A stretch of 64,000 nucleotides of DNA from a virus: the IMG/VR virus record IMGVR_UViG_3300044984_003188. One strand, written 5' to 3'. The notes under the pieces were generated by a model that did no database searches, was not told the origin of the DNA, and saw only the letters and a list, made by a program, of their open reading frames with translations. Shown piece by piece: positions 6,906 through 62,760 of the stretch (its first letter is position 1; each line of letters begins with the position of its first letter). A program made the translations under genes and the position numbers.

Positions 6906-8978
6906 ATGGCGTTCCCTGTAAGTCCTGATGTAAATGTGACCGAGGTCGATTTAACAACAATTGCGCCCAGTGTGGCTACAACAACTGGTGCAATTGCTGG
7001 TGTGTTTAACTGGGGTCCGATTGGTGAAAGAGTTTCAATTGCTACTGAAAGTGATCTTGTAACTTTCTTTGGTAAGCCAAATGCAAATAACTATGAAACA
7101 TTTTTCACAGCAGCTAATTTTCTATCATATAATAATTCATTATTGGTTGCAAGAGCTGCAAACACCACTAGCATGAATGCAAATGGCACATATGGTGCTT
7201 TTGCCAATGTAGGTGCTGTTACAAATACTGCAAATCAAACTGTAAAAAATAGTGTTGATTACGAAACAAATAAACTGACATTTGATGCAAATGTTGTTTA
7301 TGTTGCTAAGTATGCTGGCGCACTAGGTAATTCACTTCGAGTTTCCGTTTGCGATAGCGTTAATGCATATCAATCAAATGTTACACTAGTAAATACTGAT
7401 GCAAACAATACCGTTACTGGCACATTTGCTCTATCGGTTGGATCTAACACAGCAACTGTCCAATTTGCGGGTAGTAATGCTGCAGGCGCTAATACCTTTG
7501 CTGCAAACTTTGCTTCATCTTTCAGTGCTGGTGATTTAGTCACTATTGGTAATAGCACTGTTGGAACTCAACTTTTAACTTTATCATCCGTTTCTGCTCC
7601 ATCTGGCTCGCCGCCGACGTTAACAATGAATTTTACCGGAATCTATACCCTTGCTTCTGATTTCAGCGCAAATACAAATCTTACAAGAAGCTGGGAATTC
7701 TCGACTTTAGTTGATTCTGCACCAACAACTTCACAATTTGTTTCTAATTTTGGTAATTCAGCAGCAGTTGATACCATGCATGTTGTGGTTGTAGATCAAG
7801 ATGGTATGTTCACCGGTATCAGTGGTCAAATTCTAGAAGTATTCACTGATGTGTCTAGAGCTACAAATGCTAAATCCGTAGATGGTGCTTCAATTTATTA
7901 CAAGCAAGTAATCAATGAAGGCTCAAATTATATCTGGTGGGCAAATGATAGAGCAAATGCTGTAAGCAATACCGCATTAAATGTTACTAGCTCAACAAAT
8001 AATTCTGCATTAAATCTTCATTTTTCTGGTGGGCAGGATGGATTCACTGAATCAAATGCACCTGTTTCAATTCTAGCATCTGGATATGATCTATTCAATG
8101 CTAAAGAAACTTCCGACATCTCACTTGTTCTTCAAGGTAAGCCTACTGGTGGTACCACAACAAGTCAAGGTCTAACTGTAAATAACTTCCAGCTAGCAAA
8201 TTATCTAATCGACAATATTGCTTCTACCAGAAAAGATTGTGTTGTTCTCATTACACCAGATGATACTCTTGCAAGAGCAAATGCAGGGCAGGAAGCTAAA
8301 TATACCGCTGCATGGGCAAATATCATCCGTGATACCTCATATGCAATGATTGATTCCGGTTATAAATATATGTATGACCGTTATAATGATGTTTACCGTT
8401 ATGTGCCTCTAAATGGTGATATTGCAGGCCTCATGGCAAGAACAGAAAATACAAATGATGCTTGGTGGTCTCCTGCAGGTTTCAACCGTGGACAAATTAA
8501 AAATATTGTCAAGCTTCGTTGGAATCCAATTAAGGCCGATAGAGATACTCTATACAAAAATGCAGTAAATCCAGTTGTGACTTTCCCAGGCCAAGGTACT
8601 GTTCTATTTGGTGACAAGACAGCAACAAGAAAACCATCTGCGTTTGATAGAATCAATGTTCGTAGATTGTTTATTGTTCTTGAAAAGTCTATTTCTGAAG
8701 CAGCAAAATATTCACTATTTGAGTTCAATGATGAATTTACAAGATCACAATTTAGAAATCTTGTCAATCCTTATCTTCGTGAAGTTCAGGGTCGCCGCGG
8801 TATCACAGACTTCCTAGTTGTCTGTGATGGGACAAATAATACACCTGAAAGAATTGACAGAAATGAGTTCTGGGGTGATATCTATATTAAACCAGCTAGA
8901 TCTATCAATTTTATTCAACTAAACTTTGTTGCTGTTCGCACTGGTGTCCAATTCTCAACCGTAGTCGGTCAATTTTAA
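6906..8978 (+). CDS. gp18: Tail sheath protein gp18
   Basis: SP.V.V.EVDLT, WWSPAGFNRG, FDRINVRRLF, IKPARSINFI motifs. Confidence 0.97.
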   Translation: MAFPVSPDVNVTEVDLTTIAPSVATTTGAIAGVFNWGPIGERVSIATESDLVTFFGKPNANNYETFFTAANFLSYNNSLLVARAANTTSMNANGTYGAFANVGAVTNTANQTVKNSVDYETNKLTFDANVVYVAKYAGALGNSLRVSVCDSVNAYQSNVTLVNTDANNTVTGTFALSVGSNTATVQFAGSNAAGANTFAANFASSFSAGDLVTIGNSTVGTQLLTLSSVSAPSGSPPTLTMNFTGIYTLASDFSANTNLTRSWEFSTLVDSAPTTSQFVSNFGNSAAVDTMHVVVVDQDGMFTGISGQILEVFTDVSRATNAKSVDGASIYYKQVINEGSNYIWWANDRANAVSNTALNVTSSTNNSALNLHFSGGQDGFTESNAPVSILASGYDLFNAKETSDISLVLQGKPTGGTTTSQGLTVNNFQLANYLIDNIASTRKDCVVLITPDDTLARANAGQEAKYTAAWANIIRDTSYAMIDSGYKYMYDRYNDVYRYVPLNGDIAGLMARTENTNDAWWSPAGFNRGQIKNIVKLRWNPIKADRDTLYKNAVNPVVTFPGQGTVLFGDKTATRKPSAFDRINVRRLFIVLEKSISEAAKYSLFEFNDEFTRSQFRNLVNPYLREVQGRRGITDFLVVCDGTNNTPERIDRNEFWGDIYIKPARSINFIQLNFVAVRTGVQFSTVVGQF

Positions 8979-9002
8979 TTTATAAAGTAGGGGTCAAGGC
9001 AA

Positions 9003-9605
9003 ATGGCTTTCAATATTAATGACTTCAAAGCAAGAGGGCTAGCGTTTGGCGGCGCTAGACCCTCACTATTCCAGGTGGATTTAACACCACCGTTTAGTAT
9101 AACAGATCCGGTAGCTAGTCAAAAATTTACTTTCACATGTAATGCAACTACAATTCCTCCAGCAAATATTGGTTCAGTTCCTGTTCCCTATTTTGGTAGA
9201 AAAATAAAGCTTGCAGGTGATAGAGAGTTTGATGATTGGAGCGTAACAGTTATGAATGATGAGGATTTCCTTGTCAGAAATATGTTCGAAAACTGGTCAA
9301 ATTTAATGAATACTCTAGCATCTAATCTTAAGATTACTCCAGGTAATTCTTATAAGTCAAATGATGCCACTGTTACACAGTTTGCAAAAGATGGCGCAAT
9401 TATTCGTCAATATTCATTTATTGGTCTATTTCCAATAAGCGTTTCAAGCATGGATTTGAACTGGGATGCTACAAACACCATTCAATCCTTTGGTGTAACT
9501 TTTGCATATGACTATTGGGTGCCTCGTAGATCCACAGCCGCACCTGCTTCTGATATTCCTACTGGTCAACCTGGTGCTGGTGCTGGTCTAGCTCCATCAG
9601 AATGA
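9003..9605 (+). CDS. gp19: Tail tube protein gp19
   Basis: GGARPSLFQV, GRKIKLAGDREFDDW, FAYDYW motifs. Confidence 0.95.
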   Translation: MAFNINDFKARGLAFGGARPSLFQVDLTPPFSITDPVASQKFTFTCNATTIPPANIGSVPVPYFGRKIKLAGDREFDDWSVTVMNDEDFLVRNMFENWSNLMNTLASNLKITPGNSYKSNDATVTQFAKDGAIIRQYSFIGLFPISVSSMDLNWDATNTIQSFGVTFAYDYWVPRRSTAAPASDIPTGQPGAGAGLAPSE

Positions 9606-54763: not shown

Positions 54764-55215
54764 TGGATTATACCATTACAATTGGTTGTGATCATGCAGG
54801 TCTGGAGCTAGCCCGAGAAATCTCGGTATGGCTCTTTGACTCTGGTCATAAGATCCACACTTTCTTTCCGGCACCAAATACACACGTTGATTATCCAGAC
54901 TATGCCCATAGAACATGTTCTTCCGTTACTCTAGAATCTCACACTACAAGTCGTGGTATTCTGGTCTGTGGTTCTGGTGTAGGCATGGCAATTGCGGCTA
55001 ATCGACATGCTGGAATTCGTTGTGTAAATACAAATGATCCAGAGATTGCTAAGATTGCAAGAGAACATAATGATGTAAATGTTCTTGCACTTGGTGCTCG
55101 ATTTGCATCTGATAGAGATAAAATCTGGAATTGCATCACTAATTTCCTTCAGACTAAATATGAAGGTGGGCGACATGAACAACGAGTTATGAAACTATTT
55201 GGAGTATATAAATGA
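54763..55215 (+). CDS. rpiB: Ribose-5-phosphate isomerase B
   Basis: GCDHAG, DYPDYA, CGSGVGM.IAANR, AREHND.NVL.LGAR, GGRH motifs. Confidence 0.93.
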   Translation: MDYTITIGCDHAGLELAREISVWLFDSGHKIHTFFPAPNTHVDYPDYAHRTCSSVTLESHTTSRGILVCGSGVGMAIAANRHAGIRCVNTNDPEIAKIAREHNDVNVLALGARFASDRDKIWNCITNFLQTKYEGGRHEQRVMKLFGVYK

Positions 55216-56180
55216 AATTTGTAATTGCAGGCTTAACGGCAACTCTACTGACTACAACAGCACATGCACAAGTACTAAACGGTGCTGGTGCTACATTCCC
55301 TGCACCGATTTATTCTAAATGGGCAGAAGAATCTAAATCTGCTGGATTTGGAATTAACTATCAAGCAATTGGTTCTGGTGGTGGGCAAAATCAAATCATC
55401 AACCGAACAGTTGATTTTGGAGCATCAGATGCTCCTATGACACTAGAAAAACTAAAACAATATAATCTGTTTCAAGTTCCTACGGTTATGGGATCGGTTG
55501 TTGTTATTGTAAATATTCCTGGTATTGCTACAAATACCTTAAATATTTCTGGGCAAAATCTAGTTGATATTTTCAATGGTAAGATTACCAAATGGAATGA
55601 TCCAAAGATTGTTGTAGATAATCCAAGTTTAAAACTACCTAATATGGCAATTGCACCAGTCTATCGTGCTGATGGTTCAGGTACCACATTTGTGTTTGTT
55701 TCATATCTACATTCACAAGATAAAGATTTTAGTGTGCCTGCGGTATCAATCAAGTGGAATGCTGGTTCAGGCGCCCGTGGTAATGATGGCGTAGCAGCCA
55801 CTGTAAAGCGCATGCCGGGATCAATCGGTTATGTTGAAAAAGTTTTTGCCACAAATAATAATATTCCAACTGCAGTGCTAAAGAGTGCAACTGGAGCTTG
55901 GGTAGCACCTAGCAATAAAAGCTTTATGGCAGCAGTAGCTAAAGCAGATTGGTCGGATACTAATGAAGCAAATGTAATTAATCGCTCTTGTGATGAATGC
56001 TATCCTATTGTATCCGCAACATATGTTCTTATTCCCAAGGACTCTAAGAAGCTAAATGAGATTACAAGTTGGCTAGAATGGGTTTATAAAAATGGAAATG
56101 CCTCAGCGATTTCCCTTGACTTTATCCCACTTTCGGATTATAATAAGGGTATGGTAATCAAACAACTAAAGAATCAGTAA
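55212..56180 (+). CDS. pstS: Phosphate-binding periplasmic protein PstS
   Basis: GAGATFPAPIY, YQAIGSGGG, VDFGASDAP, RADGSGTT motifs. Confidence 0.95.
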   Translation: MKFVIAGLTATLLTTTAHAQVLNGAGATFPAPIYSKWAEESKSAGFGINYQAIGSGGGQNQIINRTVDFGASDAPMTLEKLKQYNLFQVPTVMGSVVVIVNIPGIATNTLNISGQNLVDIFNGKITKWNDPKIVVDNPSLKLPNMAIAPVYRADGSGTTFVFVSYLHSQDKDFSVPAVSIKWNAGSGARGNDGVAATVKRMPGSIGYVEKVFATNNNIPTAVLKSATGAWVAPSNKSFMAAVAKADWSDTNEANVINRSCDECYPIVSATYVLIPKDSKKLNEITSWLEWVYKNGNASAISLDFIPLSDYNKGMVIKQLKNQ

Positions 56181-56535: not shown

Positions 56536-56609
56536 GCCCGTATAGCCCAATTGGCAGAGGTAGCAGTTTCAAAAACTGTGTGTTGTCGGTTCGAATCCGA
56601 CTACGGGTA
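56536..56609 (+). tRNA. tRNA-Leu(CAA), short variable loop, CCA not encoded
   Basis: Loop TTCAAAA; followed by CATAAGCAC. Confidence 0.85.
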
Positions 56610-56677
56610 CATAAGCACTCGAAAATTATAAATAGCAATATCAATAAGACTATTTATAATTTTCGAGGTTAGCTCAA
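56610..56677 (+). promoter_or_regulatory. Late-promoter/RBS-sequestering hairpin (copy 3)
   Basis: CTCGAAAATTATAAATAG pairs with CTATTTATAATTTTCGAG; TATAAATA at 56627-56634. Confidence 0.8.
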
Positions 56678-57364
56678 ATGTTTTATACTATCTATAAAAT
56701 TACTAATAAAATTAATAACAAATATTATGTAGGTAAACATCAAACCAAAAATTTAGATGATAATTATATGGGTTCTGGTAAACTTATCAAAGCAGCCATT
56801 AAAAAACATGGTAAAGAAAACTTTAAAAAAGAAATATTACATATATTTGATAATGAATTAGAAATGAATACCAAAGAAAAAGAATTGGTTGTAGTAAGTG
56901 AATCAACTTATAATCTTATTGAAGGTGGTAAGGGTGGGTTTAGTTACATTAATAAAAATAATCTTAAATTACCACTTAATGAAAATAGCAAACAAAAAAT
57001 AGCAAATACTGTCAGAGAACATTGGCAAAATGGTGTTTATGAAAAAAATAAACAAAAGTTAATTAAACAAAATAGAACAATAAAGAAATCTACAAATTTT
57101 TCAATTAATAAATCTATACTTAAAAAAGCATTAGAACAAGCACAATCTCCCAATGCTGTTATGAAAAGAAAACAGACTTTTATAGAAAATAAACATCAAC
57201 AAGGATCAAAAAATTCTCAGTTTAATACCTGCTGGATTAATAATGGTTTTGAAAATAAAAAAATTAAAAAAGATCAACTTGAAATTTATCTTGAACAAAA
57301 CTGGATAAAAGGTAGGTTGATCCTTCAAAAGGAAATATATTATGGAAGATATGAAGTTTTGTAA
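56678..57364 (+). CDS. Free-standing GIY-YIG homing endonuclease
   Basis: YTIYKITNKINNKYYVGKH; paralogue of 37174 and 40743. Confidence 0.88.
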   Translation: MFYTIYKITNKINNKYYVGKHQTKNLDDNYMGSGKLIKAAIKKHGKENFKKEILHIFDNELEMNTKEKELVVVSESTYNLIEGGKGGFSYINKNNLKLPLNENSKQKIANTVREHWQNGVYEKNKQKLIKQNRTIKKSTNFSINKSILKKALEQAQSPNAVMKRKQTFIENKHQQGSKNSQFNTCWINNGFENKKIKKDQLEIYLEQNWIKGRLILQKEIYYGRYEVL

Positions 57365-57622: not shown

Positions 57623-57979
57623 ATGAGTCGAGGTCGAGTTAATACCTTTTGTGTTGAGCCTTTCAATAACAGCTTTGAGCAGGAAGTAAAGCCTGGAAAT
57701 AAGGTTGTCTTTGCCGCAACTTCTTGGAAACGTACACGACTTGAAGAAGGCATTTTTAATGGTGTAAATAAGAATAAGTCTGGGCAGATTCAATCCGTTC
57801 GAGTTTCTTATCCTATTATCAAGTATGTGCCAAATGGCAAGACTGAGTCTACCACATATCAGCGATATAACTATCAAACACGAAGGTATGAAGAAGTTAC
57901 CTATAATCGGATGCTTTTTGATGAAGTGCCAGGTACAGGGCATTCTACTCTTCAACTAATGCGTGTGTTTAAGATCTAA
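57623..57979 (+). CDS. Hypothetical protein
   Basis: Upstream promoter TTGACA..TATAAT and SD GAGGTG. Confidence 0.6.
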   Translation: MSRGRVNTFCVEPFNNSFEQEVKPGNKVVFAATSWKRTRLEEGIFNGVNKNKSGQIQSVRVSYPIIKYVPNGKTESTTYQRYNYQTRRYEEVTYNRMLFDEVPGTGHSTLQLMRVFKI

Positions 57980-57991
57980 TAATACAATTAA

Positions 57992-58581
57992 GGATTTGTT
58001 TCAGCAACTAAAAAAGTTTTTATTGGAAAAAACAAAAACACACCAATCCGAAAAAATCTATTGACATTGACATAAATCTGGTATATAATACGCTTATAAA
58101 TTAAGGAATAAGGGTTGGGTTCAGCCTATAAAAGCTAATCCAAACAGCAACCAAGTCCAACCCGCTAACTTATAGATTCGTTTCAGCAATCAAATAGCAA
58201 TTGACCTTGTAAATCAAAACTGCAAAAAAAAGCGAATCTGATATCTAAAGGATGTTTTCAGCAAACCAAATAGTAGCTCATCGGTAGAGCAAAGTGTCCT
58301 CAAAACACCTGGTAGTTGGTTCAAATCCAACCTAAAAAAACAACATTCTGCTATCTTCTAAGAATAAAGAATAGTTACAGCAACATAAAAATCTTCTCTT
58401 TGAACAAGAACCGTGGTCGTTCGATTCGACCGTTGCGAGGCTGGTGCCAGGAAAAGCATGCTATTCTGTTATCTTACTTAAGATTAACTTCCGCTAAAAA
58501 CAATCTCCAGTCACTTTTTGTGATATCAAAGAACCCAACGATCTGGGCGCAGGTGTGATAACTTGCAGATCGGTTAATCTG
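57992..58581 (+). ncRNA. Array of six related stem-loop RNAs (Y RNA-like / tRNA-mimic candidates)
   Basis: Each unit is a 7-9 bp closing stem, then a TTCAGCAA-like motif, an inner hairpin and a 3' G; the stems covary. Confidence 0.75.
58061..58089 (+). promoter_or_regulatory. Consensus sigma70 promoter driving RNA units 2-6 and the vWA gene
   Basis: TTGACA-17-TATAAT. Confidence 0.8.
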
Positions 58582-58601
58582 TCAATGAAAGGAACTATAT
58601 T

Positions 58602-60029
58602 ATGAACGCTTTTGCTAAAGCTGCTCTCAATCAAACTACTCGTACCACAAACGGTATGAAGGCTCTAAAGAGCACAACCAATCCATGTGTTGATCTATTC
58701 TATAAGATCGGTGCTTCACGTGGTAAGAATATCCTACCAGACTTTATTGCAGCATATGTTCAAGATAAGGAACTTGCTTGCCGTATTGCTCTATGGGCTC
58801 GTGATATTCGATCCGGTGCAGGTGAACGTGAAATTTTCCGTTCTATTCTTGCATATGTCTCTGATAACGATCCAAATATGGCTTCTCGTCTAGTACTTCG
58901 TGTACCAGAACTTGGGCGTTGGGATGACGTATTCTCTACTTCTGGTGAAGCACGTAATATTGCTATTGGAATGGTTCGACGTGCTCTTGCAACACGTGAT
59001 GGTCTAGCTGCAAAGTGGATGCCACGTAAGGGACCAATTGCTATTGAACTTCGTAATGCTCTAGGTTTCACTCCTAAGCAGTACCGTAAGACTCTAGTCA
59101 ATCTCTCTTCTGTTGTTGAGAGCCAGATGTGCGCTAAAGATTGGGATTCTATCAACTTCAATCATGTCCCATCTGTTGCTTCTGCTCGCTATAAGAAGGC
59201 CTTCAACCGTAATACTACCAAGTATAAGGAATGGACATCAAAGCTTGTCAGCACTGATCCTAAGGTTCGTGAAGAAGTCAAGATCAATGCTGGTGCAGTC
59301 TATCCTTATGATGTACTCAAGGGTAAGATTAGTCACTATCGGACTTCAGCTGGGTACTCTCAAGCAGAACTAAATGCTGTTCGGGCTCAGTGGGAAGCAC
59401 TACCAAACTATATGAATGGTTCAAACGTTCTTCCTCTGGTTGACGTTTCTGGATCCATGACATGCCCAGTTGGTGGTTCTAGCACCACATCTTGCCTTGA
59501 TGTGGCTGTTTCTCTTGGTCTGTATTGTGCTGATAAGAATACTGGGGACTTTAAGGACATGTTCCTTACATTCTCTAGTCAACCAGAACTACTAACTCTT
59601 CGTGGTAATATCCTACAGAAGATTGATCAGATGATTAAATCTTCATGGGCTATGAGCACCAACATTGTTGCCGCAATGGATCTAATCCTTCACACTGCAG
59701 TCAATGGTAATGTGCCACAGGAGGATATGCCTTCCACTCTTCTTATTCTTTCAGACATGCAGTTTAATCAATGCGCTCGCTTTGATGGCTCTGCTATGGA
59801 AACATTCCGTCGCAAGTTTACAGATGCCGGTTATACAATGCCAAAGATTGTTTTCTGGAATCTAAATTCACACGACAATGTTCCTGTAAAGGAAAATGAG
59901 AATGGTGTGGCTCTAGTCTCTGGTTTCAGCCCATCTATCCTCAAGTCTATTCTGGCTTCCGATCTAGAACAGTTTACACCAGAGGCAATGATGATGAAGA
60001 CCCTTATGGCTGAAAGGTACAATTTCTAA
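58602..60029 (+). CDS. DUF2828-type helical plus vWA protein (possibly Ro60/TROVE-like)
   Basis: T.NG, WARDIR.G.GER, GRWDD, AAKWMPR, HVPSVA, MIDAS VDVSGSM, SDMQF, PKIVFWNL, VSGFSP motifs. Confidence 0.8.
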   Translation: MNAFAKAALNQTTRTTNGMKALKSTTNPCVDLFYKIGASRGKNILPDFIAAYVQDKELACRIALWARDIRSGAGEREIFRSILAYVSDNDPNMASRLVLRVPELGRWDDVFSTSGEARNIAIGMVRRALATRDGLAAKWMPRKGPIAIELRNALGFTPKQYRKTLVNLSSVVESQMCAKDWDSINFNHVPSVASARYKKAFNRNTTKYKEWTSKLVSTDPKVREEVKINAGAVYPYDVLKGKISHYRTSAGYSQAELNAVRAQWEALPNYMNGSNVLPLVDVSGSMTCPVGGSSTTSCLDVAVSLGLYCADKNTGDFKDMFLTFSSQPELLTLRGNILQKIDQMIKSSWAMSTNIVAAMDLILHTAVNGNVPQEDMPSTLLILSDMQFNQCARFDGSAMETFRRKFTDAGYTMPKIVFWNLNSHDNVPVKENENGVALVSGFSPSILKSILASDLEQFTPEAMMMKTLMAERYNF

Positions 60030-60211
60030 TGAATATTGTACTTGTTGTCTCTATGTTAATCGGTGGGGTTCCTACGGGCTCCCCGATTAATCTACAGAGC
60101 ACTAGCCCTGATTGCAGAGATGAGATAAATATGGTTGAGCATATGAATAGCGTATTTCAGAAGCATAAGTCTGAAATTCAATATAAGATTATAGAGTGTA
60201 AAAAGACTTAA
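60029..60211 (+). CDS. Small hypothetical protein
   Basis: Translationally coupled to the vWA gene. Confidence 0.5.
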   Translation: MNIVLVVSMLIGGVPTGSPINLQSTSPDCRDEINMVEHMNSVFQKHKSEIQYKIIECKKT

Positions 60212-60215
60212 TACT

Positions 60216-60290
60216 ATCAGTGTGGTGTAGCGGTAACATGCCGGTCTCCAAAACCGTGCGTCCTGGGTTCGAATCCTAGCACTGGTGCCA
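60216..60290 (+). tRNA. tRNA-Trp(CCA)
   Basis: Loop CTCCAAA; G-CCA. Confidence 0.88.
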
Positions 60291-60361
60291 AACTTTTTGA
60301 TTGACAACCACCACAGGTGGTATATAATATACATATAAATTGTTTCTTAGGAGTTAAGAAC

Positions 60362-61357
60362 ATGAAAACATTAGGCGTATTCATTGGGCGTTTTCAGCCC
60401 TTACATGAAGGTCATATTCAGGCAATCAAGGTTGCCGCTAAGCAAGTAGACCTTCTTCTGGTCCTTATCGGTTCGGCTAATCAGTGCCGTAGCATTAAAA
60501 ATCCATGGACCTATTCAGAGCGAGTTCAGATGTTCCATTCAAAATGGGAACAGATTGACAATCTGATTGACATTCTTCCCCTTAATGACTATCAATACTC
60601 CCATACTCAGTGGATGGCAGATGTACGTGCAAGCGTAGAGTATACCCAAAAGAATTGGGGCATCTATTCACCACCGACTCTTTTTGGTCACACAAAAGAT
60701 GGTAATGACTATCTTAACTGGTTTCCAGATTGGAACTTCAAAAATATTGAAGCCGAATATACAGTAAATGCTACATCTATTCGTGCAAAGATGTTTGCAG
60801 AACATGATAAGCGTATGCCGGAAACGGTCTATCAAGATCATCTGTTCTATAAGAAAGAACAAGAACTGTTTGCAAACTATCCATTCCCTGATACTCTCAA
60901 CTTCAACTGCTCTGATGCTGTTCTAGAATGTCAGGGTCATGTTCTTCTAATCCAACGTAAGTTTGCTCCAGGTGCTGGATGTTGGGCTCTACCAGGTGGA
61001 TTTAGAAATAATAAAGAAACTTTTCTTGATTGTGCTATTCGTGAACTTCAAGAAGAAACAAATGTTCGAGTACCAGAAAAAGTTCTTCGTGGCTCTATTG
61101 TCAAGACTCAACTTTTTGATTCACCGTCTCGATCATTTGGCTTGCTAAGGAATACATTAGCAGTCTATATGAGGATCAGTCCAAATCCAGACTATTCTCT
61201 ACCACGAGCAAATGGCGCCGATGATGCTGCACTATGTAAATGGGTGCCACTCACTGATGCTCTTAATACATATGAGCTCTATGATGACCATGCTGCTATT
61301 ATCTCTACTATGACTGGTGTTATGCCAATGCCAGCTTTTACCAAACTTAAGAAATAA
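60362..61357 (+). CDS. Bifunctional NMN adenylyltransferase / Nudix ADP-ribose pyrophosphatase (NadM-Nudix)
   Basis: GRFQPLHEGH (HxGH) and Nudix box GG..ET..CAIRELQEET, GADDA. Confidence 0.92.
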   Translation: MKTLGVFIGRFQPLHEGHIQAIKVAAKQVDLLLVLIGSANQCRSIKNPWTYSERVQMFHSKWEQIDNLIDILPLNDYQYSHTQWMADVRASVEYTQKNWGIYSPPTLFGHTKDGNDYLNWFPDWNFKNIEAEYTVNATSIRAKMFAEHDKRMPETVYQDHLFYKKEQELFANYPFPDTLNFNCSDAVLECQGHVLLIQRKFAPGAGCWALPGGFRNNKETFLDCAIRELQEETNVRVPEKVLRGSIVKTQLFDSPSRSFGLLRNTLAVYMRISPNPDYSLPRANGADDAALCKWVPLTDALNTYELYDDHAAIISTMTGVMPMPAFTKLKK

Positions 61358-61374
61358 GATAAGGAGTTTATCTA

Positions 61375-62760
61375 ATGACTATTCTAAAAAATATTCTACT
61401 TAATGTTGACAGCTATAAAGTTTCAATGTTTGAACAATACCCAGAAGGGACTGAAATTGTTCACAGCTACATTGAATCACGAGGTGGTGAACATCTAGAA
61501 ACTTTATTCTTTGGTCTACAGGGTTTCATTAAAGATTATCTTCTAACGCCGGTGACAATGGCAGACATTGATCTAGCAGAAGAAATTATGCAAGCCCATG
61601 GTGAACCATTTAATCGTGTTGGTTGGGAATATATTGTTACCAACCACGGTGGTAAACTACCAGTCCATATCCGTGCAGTTCCAGAAGGTACTATTGTTCC
61701 TGTAAGTAATGTTCTACTTACTATTGAAAATACAGATCCAAATTGTTTTTGGTTGACAACACATTTGGAAACAGCTCTGCTTCGTGCAATTTGGTATCCT
61801 ACAACTGTAGCAACCAACAGCAAAGCCATCAAGAATCTAATTAAAGGATTCTTAGAAAAGAATGGTGATCCTGCTGGACTTAGCTTTAAACTTCATGACT
61901 TCGGTGCACGTGGTGTTTCAAGTCAAGAATCCGCTGGAATTGGTGGTGCTGCGCATCTAATTAATTTCATGGGTACTGATACCATTGCGGGTATTCTTTG
62001 GGCTCGTGAGCATTATAATGCAGGCATTGCTGGTTTCTCTATTCCAGCCGCAGAACACAGCACAATTACTAGTTGGGGTCGCCCATATGAAGTAAAAGCA
62101 TATGAAAATATGCTGAATAAGTTTGCCAAGCCTGGTGCTATTCTTGCTGTTGTGAGTGATAGTTATGATGTATTCAATGCAGCAGAAAATCTCTGGGGTG
62201 GTGAGCTGAAACAAAAGATCATCGACTCTGGTGCTACTCTGGTTATTCGACCAGATTCTGGTGAACCGGTTGCTGTAAATTGTAAACTTATTCAGCTCCT
62301 AGATAAGAAATTTGGCTCTACAGTAAATGATAAGGGATACCGAGTCCTGAATAATGTTAGATTAATCCAGGGTGATGGGGTCAATTATAACACAGTCAAG
62401 GATATCCTTACTGTCTTTGATAATAACGGCTACTCTGCTGATAATATTGCTTTTGGTATGGGTGGTGCTCTTCTTCAACAGGTGAATAGGGATACACAGA
62501 AATTTGCAATGAAATGCTCTGCTGTGCGAATCGGTAAACATGATTGGAGAAAAGTTCTAAAGGATCCTATTACCGATTCAGGTAAGAAAAGCAAAGCAGG
62601 TCTACTTGAACTGTGGCGTAAAGATAATAAATTTGCCACAAGTGAAACAACACCTGAATTACTCAATGGTTGGAAACATGGACTTGAAACCGTTTACCTT
62701 AATGGTAAACTAATCCGTGATATGACTTTTGAGGAAATTAGGAACAATTCAAATAGCTAA
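61375..62760 (+). CDS. nadV: Nicotinamide phosphoribosyltransferase (NAMPT)
   Basis: DSYK.S..QYP, LHDFGARG, IPAAEHS, VSDSYD, IRPDSG, IQGDG, FGMGGALLQ motifs. Confidence 0.95.
   Translation: MTILKNILLNVDSYKVSMFEQYPEGTEIVHSYIESRGGEHLETLFFGLQGFIKDYLLTPVTMADIDLAEEIMQAHGEPFNRVGWEYIVTNHGGKLPVHIRAVPEGTIVPVSNVLLTIENTDPNCFWLTTHLETALLRAIWYPTTVATNSKAIKNLIKGFLEKNGDPAGLSFKLHDFGARGVSSQESAGIGGAAHLINFMGTDTIAGILWAREHYNAGIAGFSIPAAEHSTITSWGRPYEVKAYENMLNKFAKPGAILAVVSDSYDVFNAAENLWGGELKQKIIDSGATLVIRPDSGEPVAVNCKLIQLLDKKFGSTVNDKGYRVLNNVRLIQGDGVNYNTVKDILTVFDNNGYSADNIAFGMGGALLQQVNRDTQKFAMKCSAVRIGKHDWRKVLKDPITDSGKKSKAGLLELWRKDNKFATSETTPELLNGWKHGLETVYLNGKLIRDMTFEEIRNNSNS

What the first reader, a model, noticed from the sequence alone, without database searches (positions are those of the whole stretch)
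57992..60029. Array of six anticodon-displaying stem-loop RNAs in front of a Ro60-like (DUF2828/vWA) protein: candidate new phage ribonucleoprotein system
Seen in sequence: six units share an architecture but not a sequence. U1 57992-58050 is GGATTTGT-TTCAGCAA...ACCAATCC-G. U2 58112-58164 is GGGTTGG-GTTCAGCC...CCAACCC-G. U3 58174-58240 is AGATTCGT-TTCAGCAA...GCGAATCT-G. U4 58249-58350 is AGGATGTT-TTCAGCAA...AACATTCT-G. U5 58368-58468 is AGAATAGT-TACAGCAA...GCTATTCT-G. U6 58481-58581 is AGATTAACT-TCCGCTA...GGTTAATCT-G. The stems differ yet stay paired, which points to selection on RNA structure. Each inner hairpin carries a different anticodon-like loop: TTGGAA (TGG), TCCAAA (CCA), CTTGTAAA (TGT or GTA), CCTCAAA (TCA or CAA), CTTTGAA (TTG), TTGTGAT (GTG). 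U4 also has a D-arm (TAGCTCATCGGTAGAGC) and T-arm (GTTGG-TTCAAAT-CCAAC) but no acceptor stem or CCA; U5 has a T-arm (GGTCG-TTCGATT-CGACC). A consensus promoter precedes U2, and the vWA gene starts 21 nt after U6. Established: bacterial Ro60 (TROVE+vWA) binds Y RNAs through a terminal stem, and YrlA Y RNAs carry tRNA-like domains. Inference: this protein binds the stem+CAGCAA handle and presents a library of tRNA mimics, for example as decoys or inhibitors of host anticodon nucleases or as adaptors for RNA repair or decay.
Basis: partly seen in the sequence, partly recalled or inferred. Interest (0 to 1): 0.93.

Follow-up and report, generated by a model that had tools for sequence, protein, structure and literature searches.

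The report
Phage Ro60-like protein with partner RNAs
A large tRNA-rich phage encodes a ring-shaped Ro60-like protein preceded by six small structured RNAs that share one conserved "handle" (some carry tRNA-like parts); the same protein-RNA pairing recurs in very different phages and the handle closely resembles the unexplained Class I RNAs of Dictyostelium.

Summary
Six stem-closed units lie at 57992-58581, just upstream of a DUF2828/DUF7788 gene (58602-60029). A covariance model built from relatives finds five of them and nothing else in the 64 kb. The sixth is a conserved variant.

- **RNA family:** the handle is a 7-9 bp terminal helix, (U)UCAGCAA after the 5' arm, an A-rich 3' strand and a CUG end. 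It recurs beside homologous genes in 80 metagenomic phage contigs, with all 157 hits on the gene's strand.
- **Spread:** it also recurs in phages of Listeria, Staphylococcus, Campylobacter, E. coli, Klebsiella, Bacillus, Enterococcus and Mycobacterium, and in a cyanophage. The helix covaries strongly.
- **Protein:** the predicted fold matches Ro60 over both domains (Z 16.7 to Thermus phage Ro60). No sequence match to TROVE was found.
- **tRNA parts:** U4 has a tRNA-like core and U5 a T-arm. "An anticodon in every unit" is only partly supported.
- **Best reading:** a Ro60/Y-RNA-like ribonucleoprotein system. Binding and expression are untested.
- **Dictyostelium link:** the handle matches Rfam's Dictyostelium Class I RNA model below threshold, and one dictyostelid (T. 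lacteum) encodes a full-length homologue.

This scan has noted the same family before on many other genomes. A preprint (Bas63 gp130) already reported the Ro60-like fold and an anti-Ppl role.

The parts
57992..58050 (+). U1: handle RNA unit upstream of the operon promoter (GGAUUUGU-UUCAGCAA ... ACCAAUCC-G)
   Evidence: R1 hit at 57989-58053, 34.6 bits, E 8.5e-6. Sub-threshold RF01414 hit, 23.1 bits. One mismatch in the stem.
58061..58089 (+). Sigma-70 consensus promoter (TTGACA-17-TATAAT) for U2-U6 plus the gene
   Evidence: 12 of 12 match. Conserved in L004.
58112..58164 (+). U2: handle RNA unit with variant motif (GUUCAGCC) and a second inner CAGCAA
   Evidence: R1 hit at 58109-58167, 26.8 bits. 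Perfect 7-bp stem. Nearly identical in L004.
58174..58240 (+). U3: short handle RNA with an anticodon-loop-like hairpin (CUUGUAA)
   Evidence: R1 54.6 bits, but this is a training sequence. RF01414 20.7 bits. The L004 orthologue has loop CUGUUAA.
58249..58350 (+). U4: handle RNA whose interior is a tRNA-like body (D, anticodon and T arms) with no acceptor stem or CCA
   Evidence: R1 24.0 bits. Rfam tRNA 35.1 bits at 58271-58334, model positions 5-66. Not called by ARAGORN. Compensatory changes in the handle and T-arm against L004.
58368..58468 (+). U5: handle RNA with a T-arm-like hairpin (GGUCG-UUCGAUU-CGACC)
   Evidence: R1 39.3 bits. T-arm kept through compensatory changes in L004, where the motif reads CCGCAA.
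58481..58581 (+). U6: variant unit (UCCGCUA motif), 9-bp terminal stem, ending 21 nt before the start codon
   Evidence: Not found by R1. Fold z -2.6. Stem and motif conserved in L004. In most relatives a unit lies immediately upstream of the start codon.
58602..60029 (+). Gene for the Ro60-like protein (DUF2828 + DUF7788, with a vWA domain and DxSxS MIDAS motif at 281-285)
   Evidence: Pfam PF11443 and PF25043. phrog_850 'RNA-binding protein', E 6.5e-140. AF2 model pLDDT 73. Top structural matches are all Ro60: Foldseek E 4e-7, Z 16.7-10.7 over residues 27-475. MIDAS residues invariant.

Best explanation
This is a phage Ro60/Y-RNA-like ribonucleoprotein module.

Shown: an early sigma-70 promoter stands in front of five small RNA units (U2-U6) and the gene for a ring-plus-vWA protein. 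A sixth unit (U1) lies just upstream of the promoter.

Inferred: the units are transcribed with the gene's mRNA and cut out of that transcript. Each has a handle made of a 7-9 bp terminal helix with fixed G-C and U-A pairs, the single-stranded (U)UCAGCAA on the 5' side, an A-rich 3' strand and a CUG end. The protein binds this handle, as Ro60 binds the conserved stem of Y RNAs.

Inferred: the variable interiors are an anticodon-arm-like hairpin, a T-arm or a whole tRNA-like body. They then present tRNA-like surfaces to host or phage enzymes that act on tRNA or RNA, such as PNPase-type decay, RtcB-type repair or defence nucleases. The likely benefit is protection of the phage's RNA and tRNA economy, or blunting of a host defence.
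For: **Protein fold**
- The 13 best Foldseek PDB matches are all Ro60/TROVE chains, each aligned over about 500 columns.
- Z 16.7 (9kop, Thermus phage Ro60), 12.6 (Rsr) and 12.0 (human Ro60) over residues 27-475. vWA-only matches reach about Z 10.
- MIDAS DVSGS is invariant.

**The RNA family is real**
- CAGCAA is enriched in the 600 nt upstream of the gene in 80 loci: 190 hits against about 4 per bin elsewhere.
- All 157 R1 hits are on the gene's strand.
- 97.8% of helix cells pair, against 26-43% in slid controls, with 227 compensatory cells in 106 distinct sequences.
- In a mixed set of the window, the cyanophage and five distant phages, 7 of 8 pairs change on both sides.

**Co-occurrence far beyond close relatives**
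- Units adjoin the gene in Listeria P100plus, Staphylococcus CF9, Campylobacter F360, E. coli wV8, Klebsiella KP13-26 and Synechococcus phage BUCT-ZZ01.
- With filters off, also in Bacillus Thrax3 and Enterococcus Porthos. A weaker hit lies beside the gene in Mycobacterium CicholasNage (14.6 bits, E 0.28).

**Link to Y RNAs**
- Sub-threshold YrlA hits lie next to the gene in KP13-26 and CicholasNage.
- Citrobacter phage Ci1 has tRNA-shaped RNAs whose anticodon arm is replaced by an ACAGCAA module.
- U4 is tRNA-like. T-loop-like and anticodon-loop-like 7-nt loops are enriched.

**Literature**
- Bacterial and phage Ro60 genes have Y RNAs encoded nearby on the same strand (PMC4201824).
- Thermus phage phiLo Ro60 binds two upstream-encoded Y-like RNAs and host PNPase (PMC12135203).
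- Bas63 gp130 is Ro60-like and counters the Ppl defence (10.1101/2024.10.10.617714).

**Domain fusions in the family**
- DUF2828 is fused to a 2'-5' RNA ligase-superfamily (2H) domain, to R3H and to a zinc knuckle.
- RtcB lies 1.3 kb from the gene in P100plus.
Against:
- There is no sequence-level match to TROVE or to any solved Ro60. The likeness rests on a medium-confidence model (pLDDT 73).
- The handle differs from known Ro-binding helices, namely the bulged helix of animal Y RNAs and the CGAA motif of phiLo Yrl RNAs.
- In the preprint, gp130 alone, expressed from a plasmid without phage RNAs, restored T7 growth on Ppl. At least that activity may not need the RNAs.
- The covariation counts come from alignments fitted to the model and from related sequences.
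- Two homologue loci (Vibrio phage nt-1 and Ci1) have no canonical unit.
Confidence: 0.66

Rival explanations
1. The units are cis-acting elements of the transcript rather than stable partner RNAs. They could be processing or insulation signals in tRNA-type operons. The unit abutting the ribosome-binding site could be an operator through which the protein controls its own translation.
For: A unit lies immediately upstream of the start codon in most relatives, and U6 ends 21 nt before it here. Units are interleaved with tRNA genes in several phages. All are co-transcribed with the gene from one promoter.
Against: In other phages units lie downstream of the gene or several kb away among tRNAs. 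U1 lies outside the operon. Three to seven diverse copies per locus, with conserved tRNA-like interiors kept by compensatory change, is more than an operator or cleavage site needs. Autoregulation and a trans role are not exclusive.
Confidence: 0.14
2. The RNAs act on their own as tRNA or anticodon-arm decoys, or as regulators. The Ro60-like protein works independently, and the two are linked only because both sit in the phage's tRNA region.
For: gp130 alone counters Ppl in T7. Anticodon-loop-like hairpins are enriched. The gene sits beside tRNA arrays in almost every phage examined.
Against: Adjacency and shared strand persist across phages of at least five bacterial phyla whose tRNA regions have different layouts. 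Units occur beside the gene where few tRNA genes lie close by, as in Staphylococcus CF9 and Campylobacter F360. The invariant handle suggests a common protein ligand.
Confidence: 0.15
3. The units are DNA-level repeats, such as miniature inverted-repeat elements or recombination or homing sites, with no RNA function.
For: Terminal inverted repeats. A GIY-YIG homing endonuclease gene lies 0.6 kb upstream. Copy number varies between close relatives: L004 has two extra units.
Against: All 157 hits have the same orientation relative to the gene. The asymmetric motif is always on the 5' arm. Arms covary while pairing is kept, including G-U pairs that work only in RNA. The interiors are tRNA-like.
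Confidence: 0.03

Closest known systems
Ro60 (Rsr, TROVE+vWA) with Y RNAs: bacterial and phage YrlA/YrlB (Rfam RF02553; Chen et al. 2014, PMC4201824) and Thermus phage phiLo Ro60 with Yrl1/Yrl2 (PMC12135203; PDB 9kop, 9l5y)
   Same: - Ring-plus-vWA fold.
- Small RNAs closed by a 5'/3' terminal stem, encoded next to the gene on the same strand.
- Some carry tRNA-like domains.
- Relatives show sub-threshold YrlA matches.
   Different: - No detectable sequence similarity to TROVE.
- The handle motif is (U)UCAGCAA plus an A-rich strand, not the Y-RNA bulged helix or CGAA.
- Up to six or seven units per locus.
- In U4 the handle replaces the acceptor stem, not the anticodon arm as in YrlA.
- No window unit matches RF02553.
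Bas63 (Escherichia phage JohannRWettstein, Felixounavirus) gp130, anti-Ppl counter-defence protein (PhageMaP preprint 10.1101/2024.10.10.617714)
   Same: It is a Ro60-like protein encoded directly upstream of a tRNA array in a Felixounavirus. The Felixounavirus wV8 homologue in that position is 38.9% identical to the window protein over its full length and has a handle unit among its tRNAs.
   Different: Orthology of gp130 itself to the window protein is inferred, not tested; I did not fetch the Bas63 record. The preprint defines no RNA partner, and gp130 worked without phage RNAs.
Dictyostelium Class I RNAs (Rfam RF01414; Kjellin et al. 2021, PMC7919456)
   Same: - Short covarying terminal stem.
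- UUACAGCAA directly after the 5' arm, at the same distance from the 5' end.
- Conserved (A)AG start and CUG(U) end, an A-rich 3' strand and a variable interior.
- RF01414 matches the window units (U1, U3, U4) and one unit of relative L029; no other family did in the window apart from tRNA on the U4 core.
- One dictyostelid with validated Class I RNAs, T. lacteum, encodes a full-length DUF2828 homologue: 29% identity, E 1e-56.
   Different: - Scores reach only 18-23 bits against a gathering score of 41.5.
- The first four bases of the 11-nt motif are not shared.
- Class I genes are eukaryotic, dispersed and driven by the DUSE promoter.
- The only demonstrated direct binder is the RRM protein Rnp1A/CIBP.
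- No D. discoideum DUF2828 orthologue surfaced.

Membership tests
DUF2828/DUF7788 protein family (PF11443 + PF25043; phrog_850) | Profile matches above the curated cut-offs | tested here: met
   PF25043 157 bits (cut-off 27.1) and PF11443 76.5 bits (cut-off 29). phrog_850 E 6.5e-140 over the full length.
Ro60 / TROVE (Rsr) | Sequence match to the TROVE domain or to solved Ro60 proteins | tested here: not met
   No TROVE family at E<=0.01 in Pfam. phmmer and a 22-sequence profile against PDB sequences found no Ro60.
Ro60 / TROVE (Rsr) | HEAT-repeat ring closed by a C-terminal vWA domain | tested here: met
   On a predicted model (pLDDT 73, pTM 0.64), the top 13 Foldseek hits are Ro60. Z 16.7-10.7 with 346-383 aligned residues spanning 27-475.
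Ro60 / TROVE (Rsr) | MIDAS motif in the vWA domain | tested here: met
   D281-V-S283-G-S285, T353 and D385 are invariant in 22 homologues.
Ro60 / TROVE (Rsr) | Binds Y RNA through a conserved terminal helix | not testable with these tools
   Needs EMSA, RIP or a structure. No RNA-protein prediction tool was available.
Y RNA, YrlA type (RF02553) | Covariance-model score at or above the gathering score (69 bits) | tested here: not met
   No RF02553 hit in 57900-58650 at E<=10. Relatives reach 40.1, 39.8 and 32.5 bits.
Y RNA, YrlA type (RF02553) | Encoded within a few kb of the Ro60-type gene on the same strand | tested here: met
   All six units lie within 610 nt upstream on the + strand. 157 of 157 hits in relatives are on the gene's strand.
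Y RNA, YrlA type (RF02553) | tRNA-like domain in at least one RNA | tested here: met
   U4 core scores 35.1 bits on RF00005, gathering score 29. The topology differs: the handle sits at the acceptor end.
Dictyostelium Class I RNA (RF01414) | Covariance-model score at or above the gathering score (41.5 bits) | tested here: not met
   23.1, 20.7 and 18.3 bits for U1, U3 and U4. 20.6 bits in L029.
Dictyostelium Class I RNA (RF01414) | Short 5'/3' stem conserved in structure but not sequence, with fixed terminal residues ((A)AG ... CUGU) | tested here: met
   U3-U6 start (A/U)AG and end CUG. The features are as described in PMC7919456.
Dictyostelium Class I RNA (RF01414) | 11-nt motif CCUUACAGCAA next to the 5' arm | tested here: inconclusive
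   The 3' seven or eight bases ((U)UACAGCAA or UUCAGCAA) are shared at the same distance from the 5' end. CCU is not shared.
Dictyostelium Class I RNA (RF01414) | DUSE promoter about 60 nt upstream | tested here: not met
   Here the units follow a bacterial sigma-70 promoter and are arrayed in an operon.
tRNA (RF00005), for U4 only | Complete cloverleaf with acceptor stem and 3' end | tested here: not met
   Only model positions 5-66 match. ARAGORN does not call it. A 3-bp acceptor remnant opens into the handle.

The most novel reading that the evidence does not exclude
The CAGCAA-handle RNAs of phages and the Class I RNAs of Dictyostelium would be one RNA family, whose common protein partner is the Ro60-like DUF2828 protein. 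Class I RNAs would then not be unique to social amoebae. Their unknown function would become testable as a Ro60/Y-RNA-type particle. One lead I could not resolve: DDB_G0281243, the protein of unknown function pulled down with Class I RNA DdR-21, may or may not be a DUF2828 protein.
Probability: 0.3. Interest if true: 0.9.

Novelty: new variant of a known kind. Interest (0 to 1): 0.74.

Why it matters
Ro60-Y RNA particles are known from animals, some bacteria and a few phages. This protein family is Ro60-like only in fold. It occurs in at least 711 sequenced phages and in thousands of metagenomic proteins, and the inferred Felixounavirus orthologue, Bas63 gp130, already has a counter-defence phenotype.

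Defining its RNA partners would give a concrete model for what these phages do with it: tRNA-shaped baits on a common handle. It would also supply a handle motif for mutagenesis.

The near-identity of the handle to Dictyostelium Class I RNAs, abundant RNAs of unknown mechanism reported as unique to dictyostelids, offers a testable candidate protein partner for them.

Tried and rejected
**Searches that found nothing or could not run**
- Near-identity DNA search of the phage collection: no match.
- Sequence searches against PDB, by single sequence and by profile: no Ro60.
- NCBIfam: nothing.
Expression and extra copies elsewhere in the genome therefore could not be checked.
- Searching the T. 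lacteum record with the phage model was not possible.
- The Avesson 2011 paper is not held. The supplements of Kjellin 2021 do not mention DDB_G0281243 or DUF2828.

**Checks with a negative or weak outcome**
- A naive stem+CAGCAA scan gives background hits with 6-7 bp stems across the window, so it was replaced by a covariance model.
- The 21.5 kb around the T. lacteum gene holds no Class I-like RNA.
- The nearest relatives of the T. lacteum protein are unnamed environmental sequences; no D. discoideum orthologue appeared.
- A guess at the Bas63 accession returned another phage, so gp130 orthology stays inferred.
- YrlA and other Rfam families do not match the window units.

**Not used**
- Complex prediction, because it takes proteins and small ligands, not RNA.
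Full report
**Observation.** The region 57992-58581 holds six units closed by 7-9 bp terminal stems. Five have (U)UCAGCAA, or CAGCC in U2, directly after the 5' arm. U6 has UCCGCUA. The 3' arms are followed by G. A perfect TTGACA-17-TATAAT promoter lies between U1 and U2. The ORF at 58602-60029 starts 21 nt after U6. ARAGORN finds 24 tRNAs in the window but none in this stretch. Rfam's tRNA model matches the U4 interior (58271-58334) at 35.1 bits over positions 5-66, so the core is tRNA-like without an acceptor stem. Energies of single units are mostly unremarkable against shuffles; only U6 stands out at z -2.6. The case therefore rests on comparison with relatives.

**Comparative test of the RNAs.** The protein has thousands of homologues. 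In 80 IMG/VR loci with 60-86% identical proteins, CAGCAA is concentrated in the 600 nt upstream of the gene: 190 occurrences against about 4 per 200-nt bin elsewhere. Most occurrences sit in units with the same build but different stem sequences, for example UAGGAUCG/CGAUCCUG, UAGAAUGU/ACAUUCUG and UAGGUUAA/UUAACCUG.

I built model R1 from 22 short units with an 8-bp helix.
- In the window it finds U1-U5 and nothing else at E<=1.
- In the 80 loci, all 157 hits at E<=0.01 are on the gene's strand.
- On 106 distinct sequences, 97.8% of helix cells pair, against 26-43% when partners are slid. There are 227 doubly changed cells.
- On a mixed set (the window, the cyanophage and five distant phages), 7 of 8 pairs change on both sides.
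- These alignments are fitted to the model and the sequences are related, so the figures are strong but not independent proof.

The handle consensus is UU(U)AG-R-W-U-N-N, 2-3 nt, C-A-G-C-A-A ... N-N-A-W-Y-C-U-G-U. An A-rich 3' strand lies before the 3' arm, about 85% A at positions -5 to -3.

**Closest relative.** In L004 (86% protein identity) the promoter and U2-U6 are conserved and two extra units sit between U5 and U6. The U4 handle, the U4 T-arm and the U5 T-arm differ by compensatory changes. U6's variant motif is kept, and U5 reads CCGCAA there. Both the interiors and the variant motifs are thus under constraint.

**Distant phages.** The gene occurs in 711 phage records, almost always beside tRNA arrays. 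R1 finds units on the gene's strand next to the gene in the following phages.
- Listeria P100plus: two units upstream.
- Staphylococcus CF9: one unit 17 nt downstream.
- Campylobacter F360: two units upstream.
- E. coli wV8: one unit among the tRNAs downstream.
- Klebsiella KP13-26: two units downstream.
- Synechococcus phage BUCT-ZZ01.
- With filters off: Bacillus Thrax3 and Enterococcus Porthos, plus a weaker hit in Mycobacterium CicholasNage (14.6 bits, E 0.28).

Sub-threshold YrlA matches lie beside the gene in KP13-26 and CicholasNage. Citrobacter phage Ci1 has, just downstream of the gene, two tRNA-shaped RNAs whose anticodon arm is replaced by a module containing ACAGCAA or UUCAGCA. That is the YrlA topology. 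Vibrio phage nt-1 shows nothing.

**Interiors.** Over 141 distinct units, predicted hairpins with 7-nt loops number 70, against 21.8 in shuffles. Twenty-nine fit Y-U-NNN-R-N, against 1.4 in shuffles. Ten of these are T-loop-like and nineteen anticodon-loop-like. These sequences are related to one another. In the window, U3 and U4 fit an anticodon-arm reading and U5 has a T-arm. U1, U2 and U6 are ambiguous. The 'anticodon' of U3 differs between the window and L004, so no particular anticodon is conserved.

**Protein.** Pfam gives DUF2828 + DUF7788, and PHROGs gives phrog_850 'RNA-binding protein'. An AlphaFold2 model from a 22-sequence alignment has pLDDT 73 and pTM 0.64.
- The 13 best Foldseek PDB matches are all Ro60, with E from 4e-7 to 1e-4 and about 500 aligned columns.
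- VIA-align gives Z 16.7 and 14.4 (phiLo Ro60), 12.6 (Deinococcus Rsr) and 12.0 (human Ro60) over residues 27-475.
- vWA-only matches reach about Z 10.
- The MIDAS residues are invariant.
- Sequence methods find no TROVE or Ro60.
- Rare long homologues are fused to a 2'-5' RNA ligase-superfamily domain, to R3H or to a zinc knuckle.

**Literature.**
- Chen et al. 2014 found YrlA-type Y RNAs beside TROVE-annotated genes in bacteria and phages. They searched only genomes with an annotated TROVE protein.
- phiLo Ro60 binds two upstream-encoded Y-like RNAs with a CGAA motif and, together with them, host PNPase.
- The PhageMaP preprint reports that Bas63 gp130 resembles Ro60, counters Ppl and does so when expressed alone. 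It guesses that some neighbouring 'tRNA genes' are Y RNAs.
- Bas63 is a Felixounavirus, like wV8. Orthology of gp130 to the window protein is inferred from this.
- I found no paper or Rfam family describing the CAGCAA handle in phages.

**Dictyostelium.** In the window stretch the only Rfam matches near the units, apart from tRNA on the U4 core and two weak reverse-strand hits, are to RF01414, at 18-23 bits against a gathering score of 41.5. One unit of relative L029 scores 20.6 bits. Kjellin et al. describe Class I RNAs as having a short covarying 5'/3' stem, the motif CCUUACAGCAA after the 5' arm, conserved AAG and CUGU ends and a variable interior. They report them as unique to Dictyostelia. 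D. discoideum sequences from their supplement align with phage units over arm plus UUACAGCAA at the same spacing.

On the protein side:
- Amoebozoa encode DUF2828 proteins: Cavostelium, Nematostelium and Flabellula.
- So does the dictyostelid Tieghemostelium (Dictyostelium) lacteum: KYR00564.1, 504 aa, 29% identical to the window protein over 488 residues, E 1e-56.
- That gene is intronless and sits among ordinary nuclear genes. No Class I-like RNA lies within 10 kb.
- No D. discoideum orthologue surfaced, and the nearest relatives of the T. lacteum protein are unnamed environmental sequences.
- The bioRxiv version lists four proteins pulled down with DdR-21. One is DDB_G0281243, of unknown function. 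I could not determine its family.

**Verdict.** The most likely reading (0.66) is a Ro60/Y-RNA-like particle in which the protein binds the shared handle and the interiors present tRNA-like parts. Binding, expression and biological role are inferred. The rivals are cis-acting leader or processing elements, independent decoy RNAs, and DNA repeats. This is a new variant of a known kind of system, not a new kind. The same family has been noted repeatedly by this scan on other genomes.

Noticed in passing
window 60317-62760: Behind their own consensus promoter (60301-60328) lie a NadR-like NMN adenylyltransferase fused to Nudix, and a nicotinamide phosphoribosyltransferase. Together they form a phage NAD+ salvage pair of the kind known from KVP40-type phages.
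   Followed up: partly
window 55212-56180 and 56678-57364: A PstS-like phosphate-binding protein gene, and a GIY-YIG (SegE-like) homing endonuclease gene next to tRNA-Leu (56536-56610), lie just upstream of the RNA array.
   Followed up: partly
L085 3468-4019 (Listeria phage P100plus): A ROOL RNA-like match (86 bits, gathering score 99.1) lies about 1 kb upstream of the Ro60-like gene, in the tRNA region. An RtcB-type RNA ligase gene lies 1.3 kb downstream of that gene (7851-9062).
   Followed up: no
L002 4373-4607 (Citrobacter phage Ci1): Two tRNA-shaped RNAs with acceptor, D and T arms have the anticodon arm replaced by a long module holding ACAGCAA or UUCAGCA. One is annotated 'tRNA-Pseudo'. 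The handle position is inverted relative to the window's U4.
   Followed up: partly
P0127, P0128, P0136 (long homologues): DUF2828/DUF7788 is fused to a 2'-5' RNA ligase-superfamily domain, to a CCHC zinc knuckle, or to R3H plus SAM domains. All three fusions point to RNA-related roles.
   Followed up: partly
L092 10001-11515 (Tieghemostelium lacteum LODT01000013.1): An intronless, phage-sized DUF2828 gene sits among ordinary nuclear genes. Its nearest relatives in an exhaustive search are unnamed environmental sequences, so it may have been acquired horizontally.
   Followed up: partly
window 60029-60290: A 60-aa ORF with no family match overlaps the stop codon of the Ro60-like gene, and tRNA-Trp follows it. 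Both probably belong to the same transcript.
   Followed up: no
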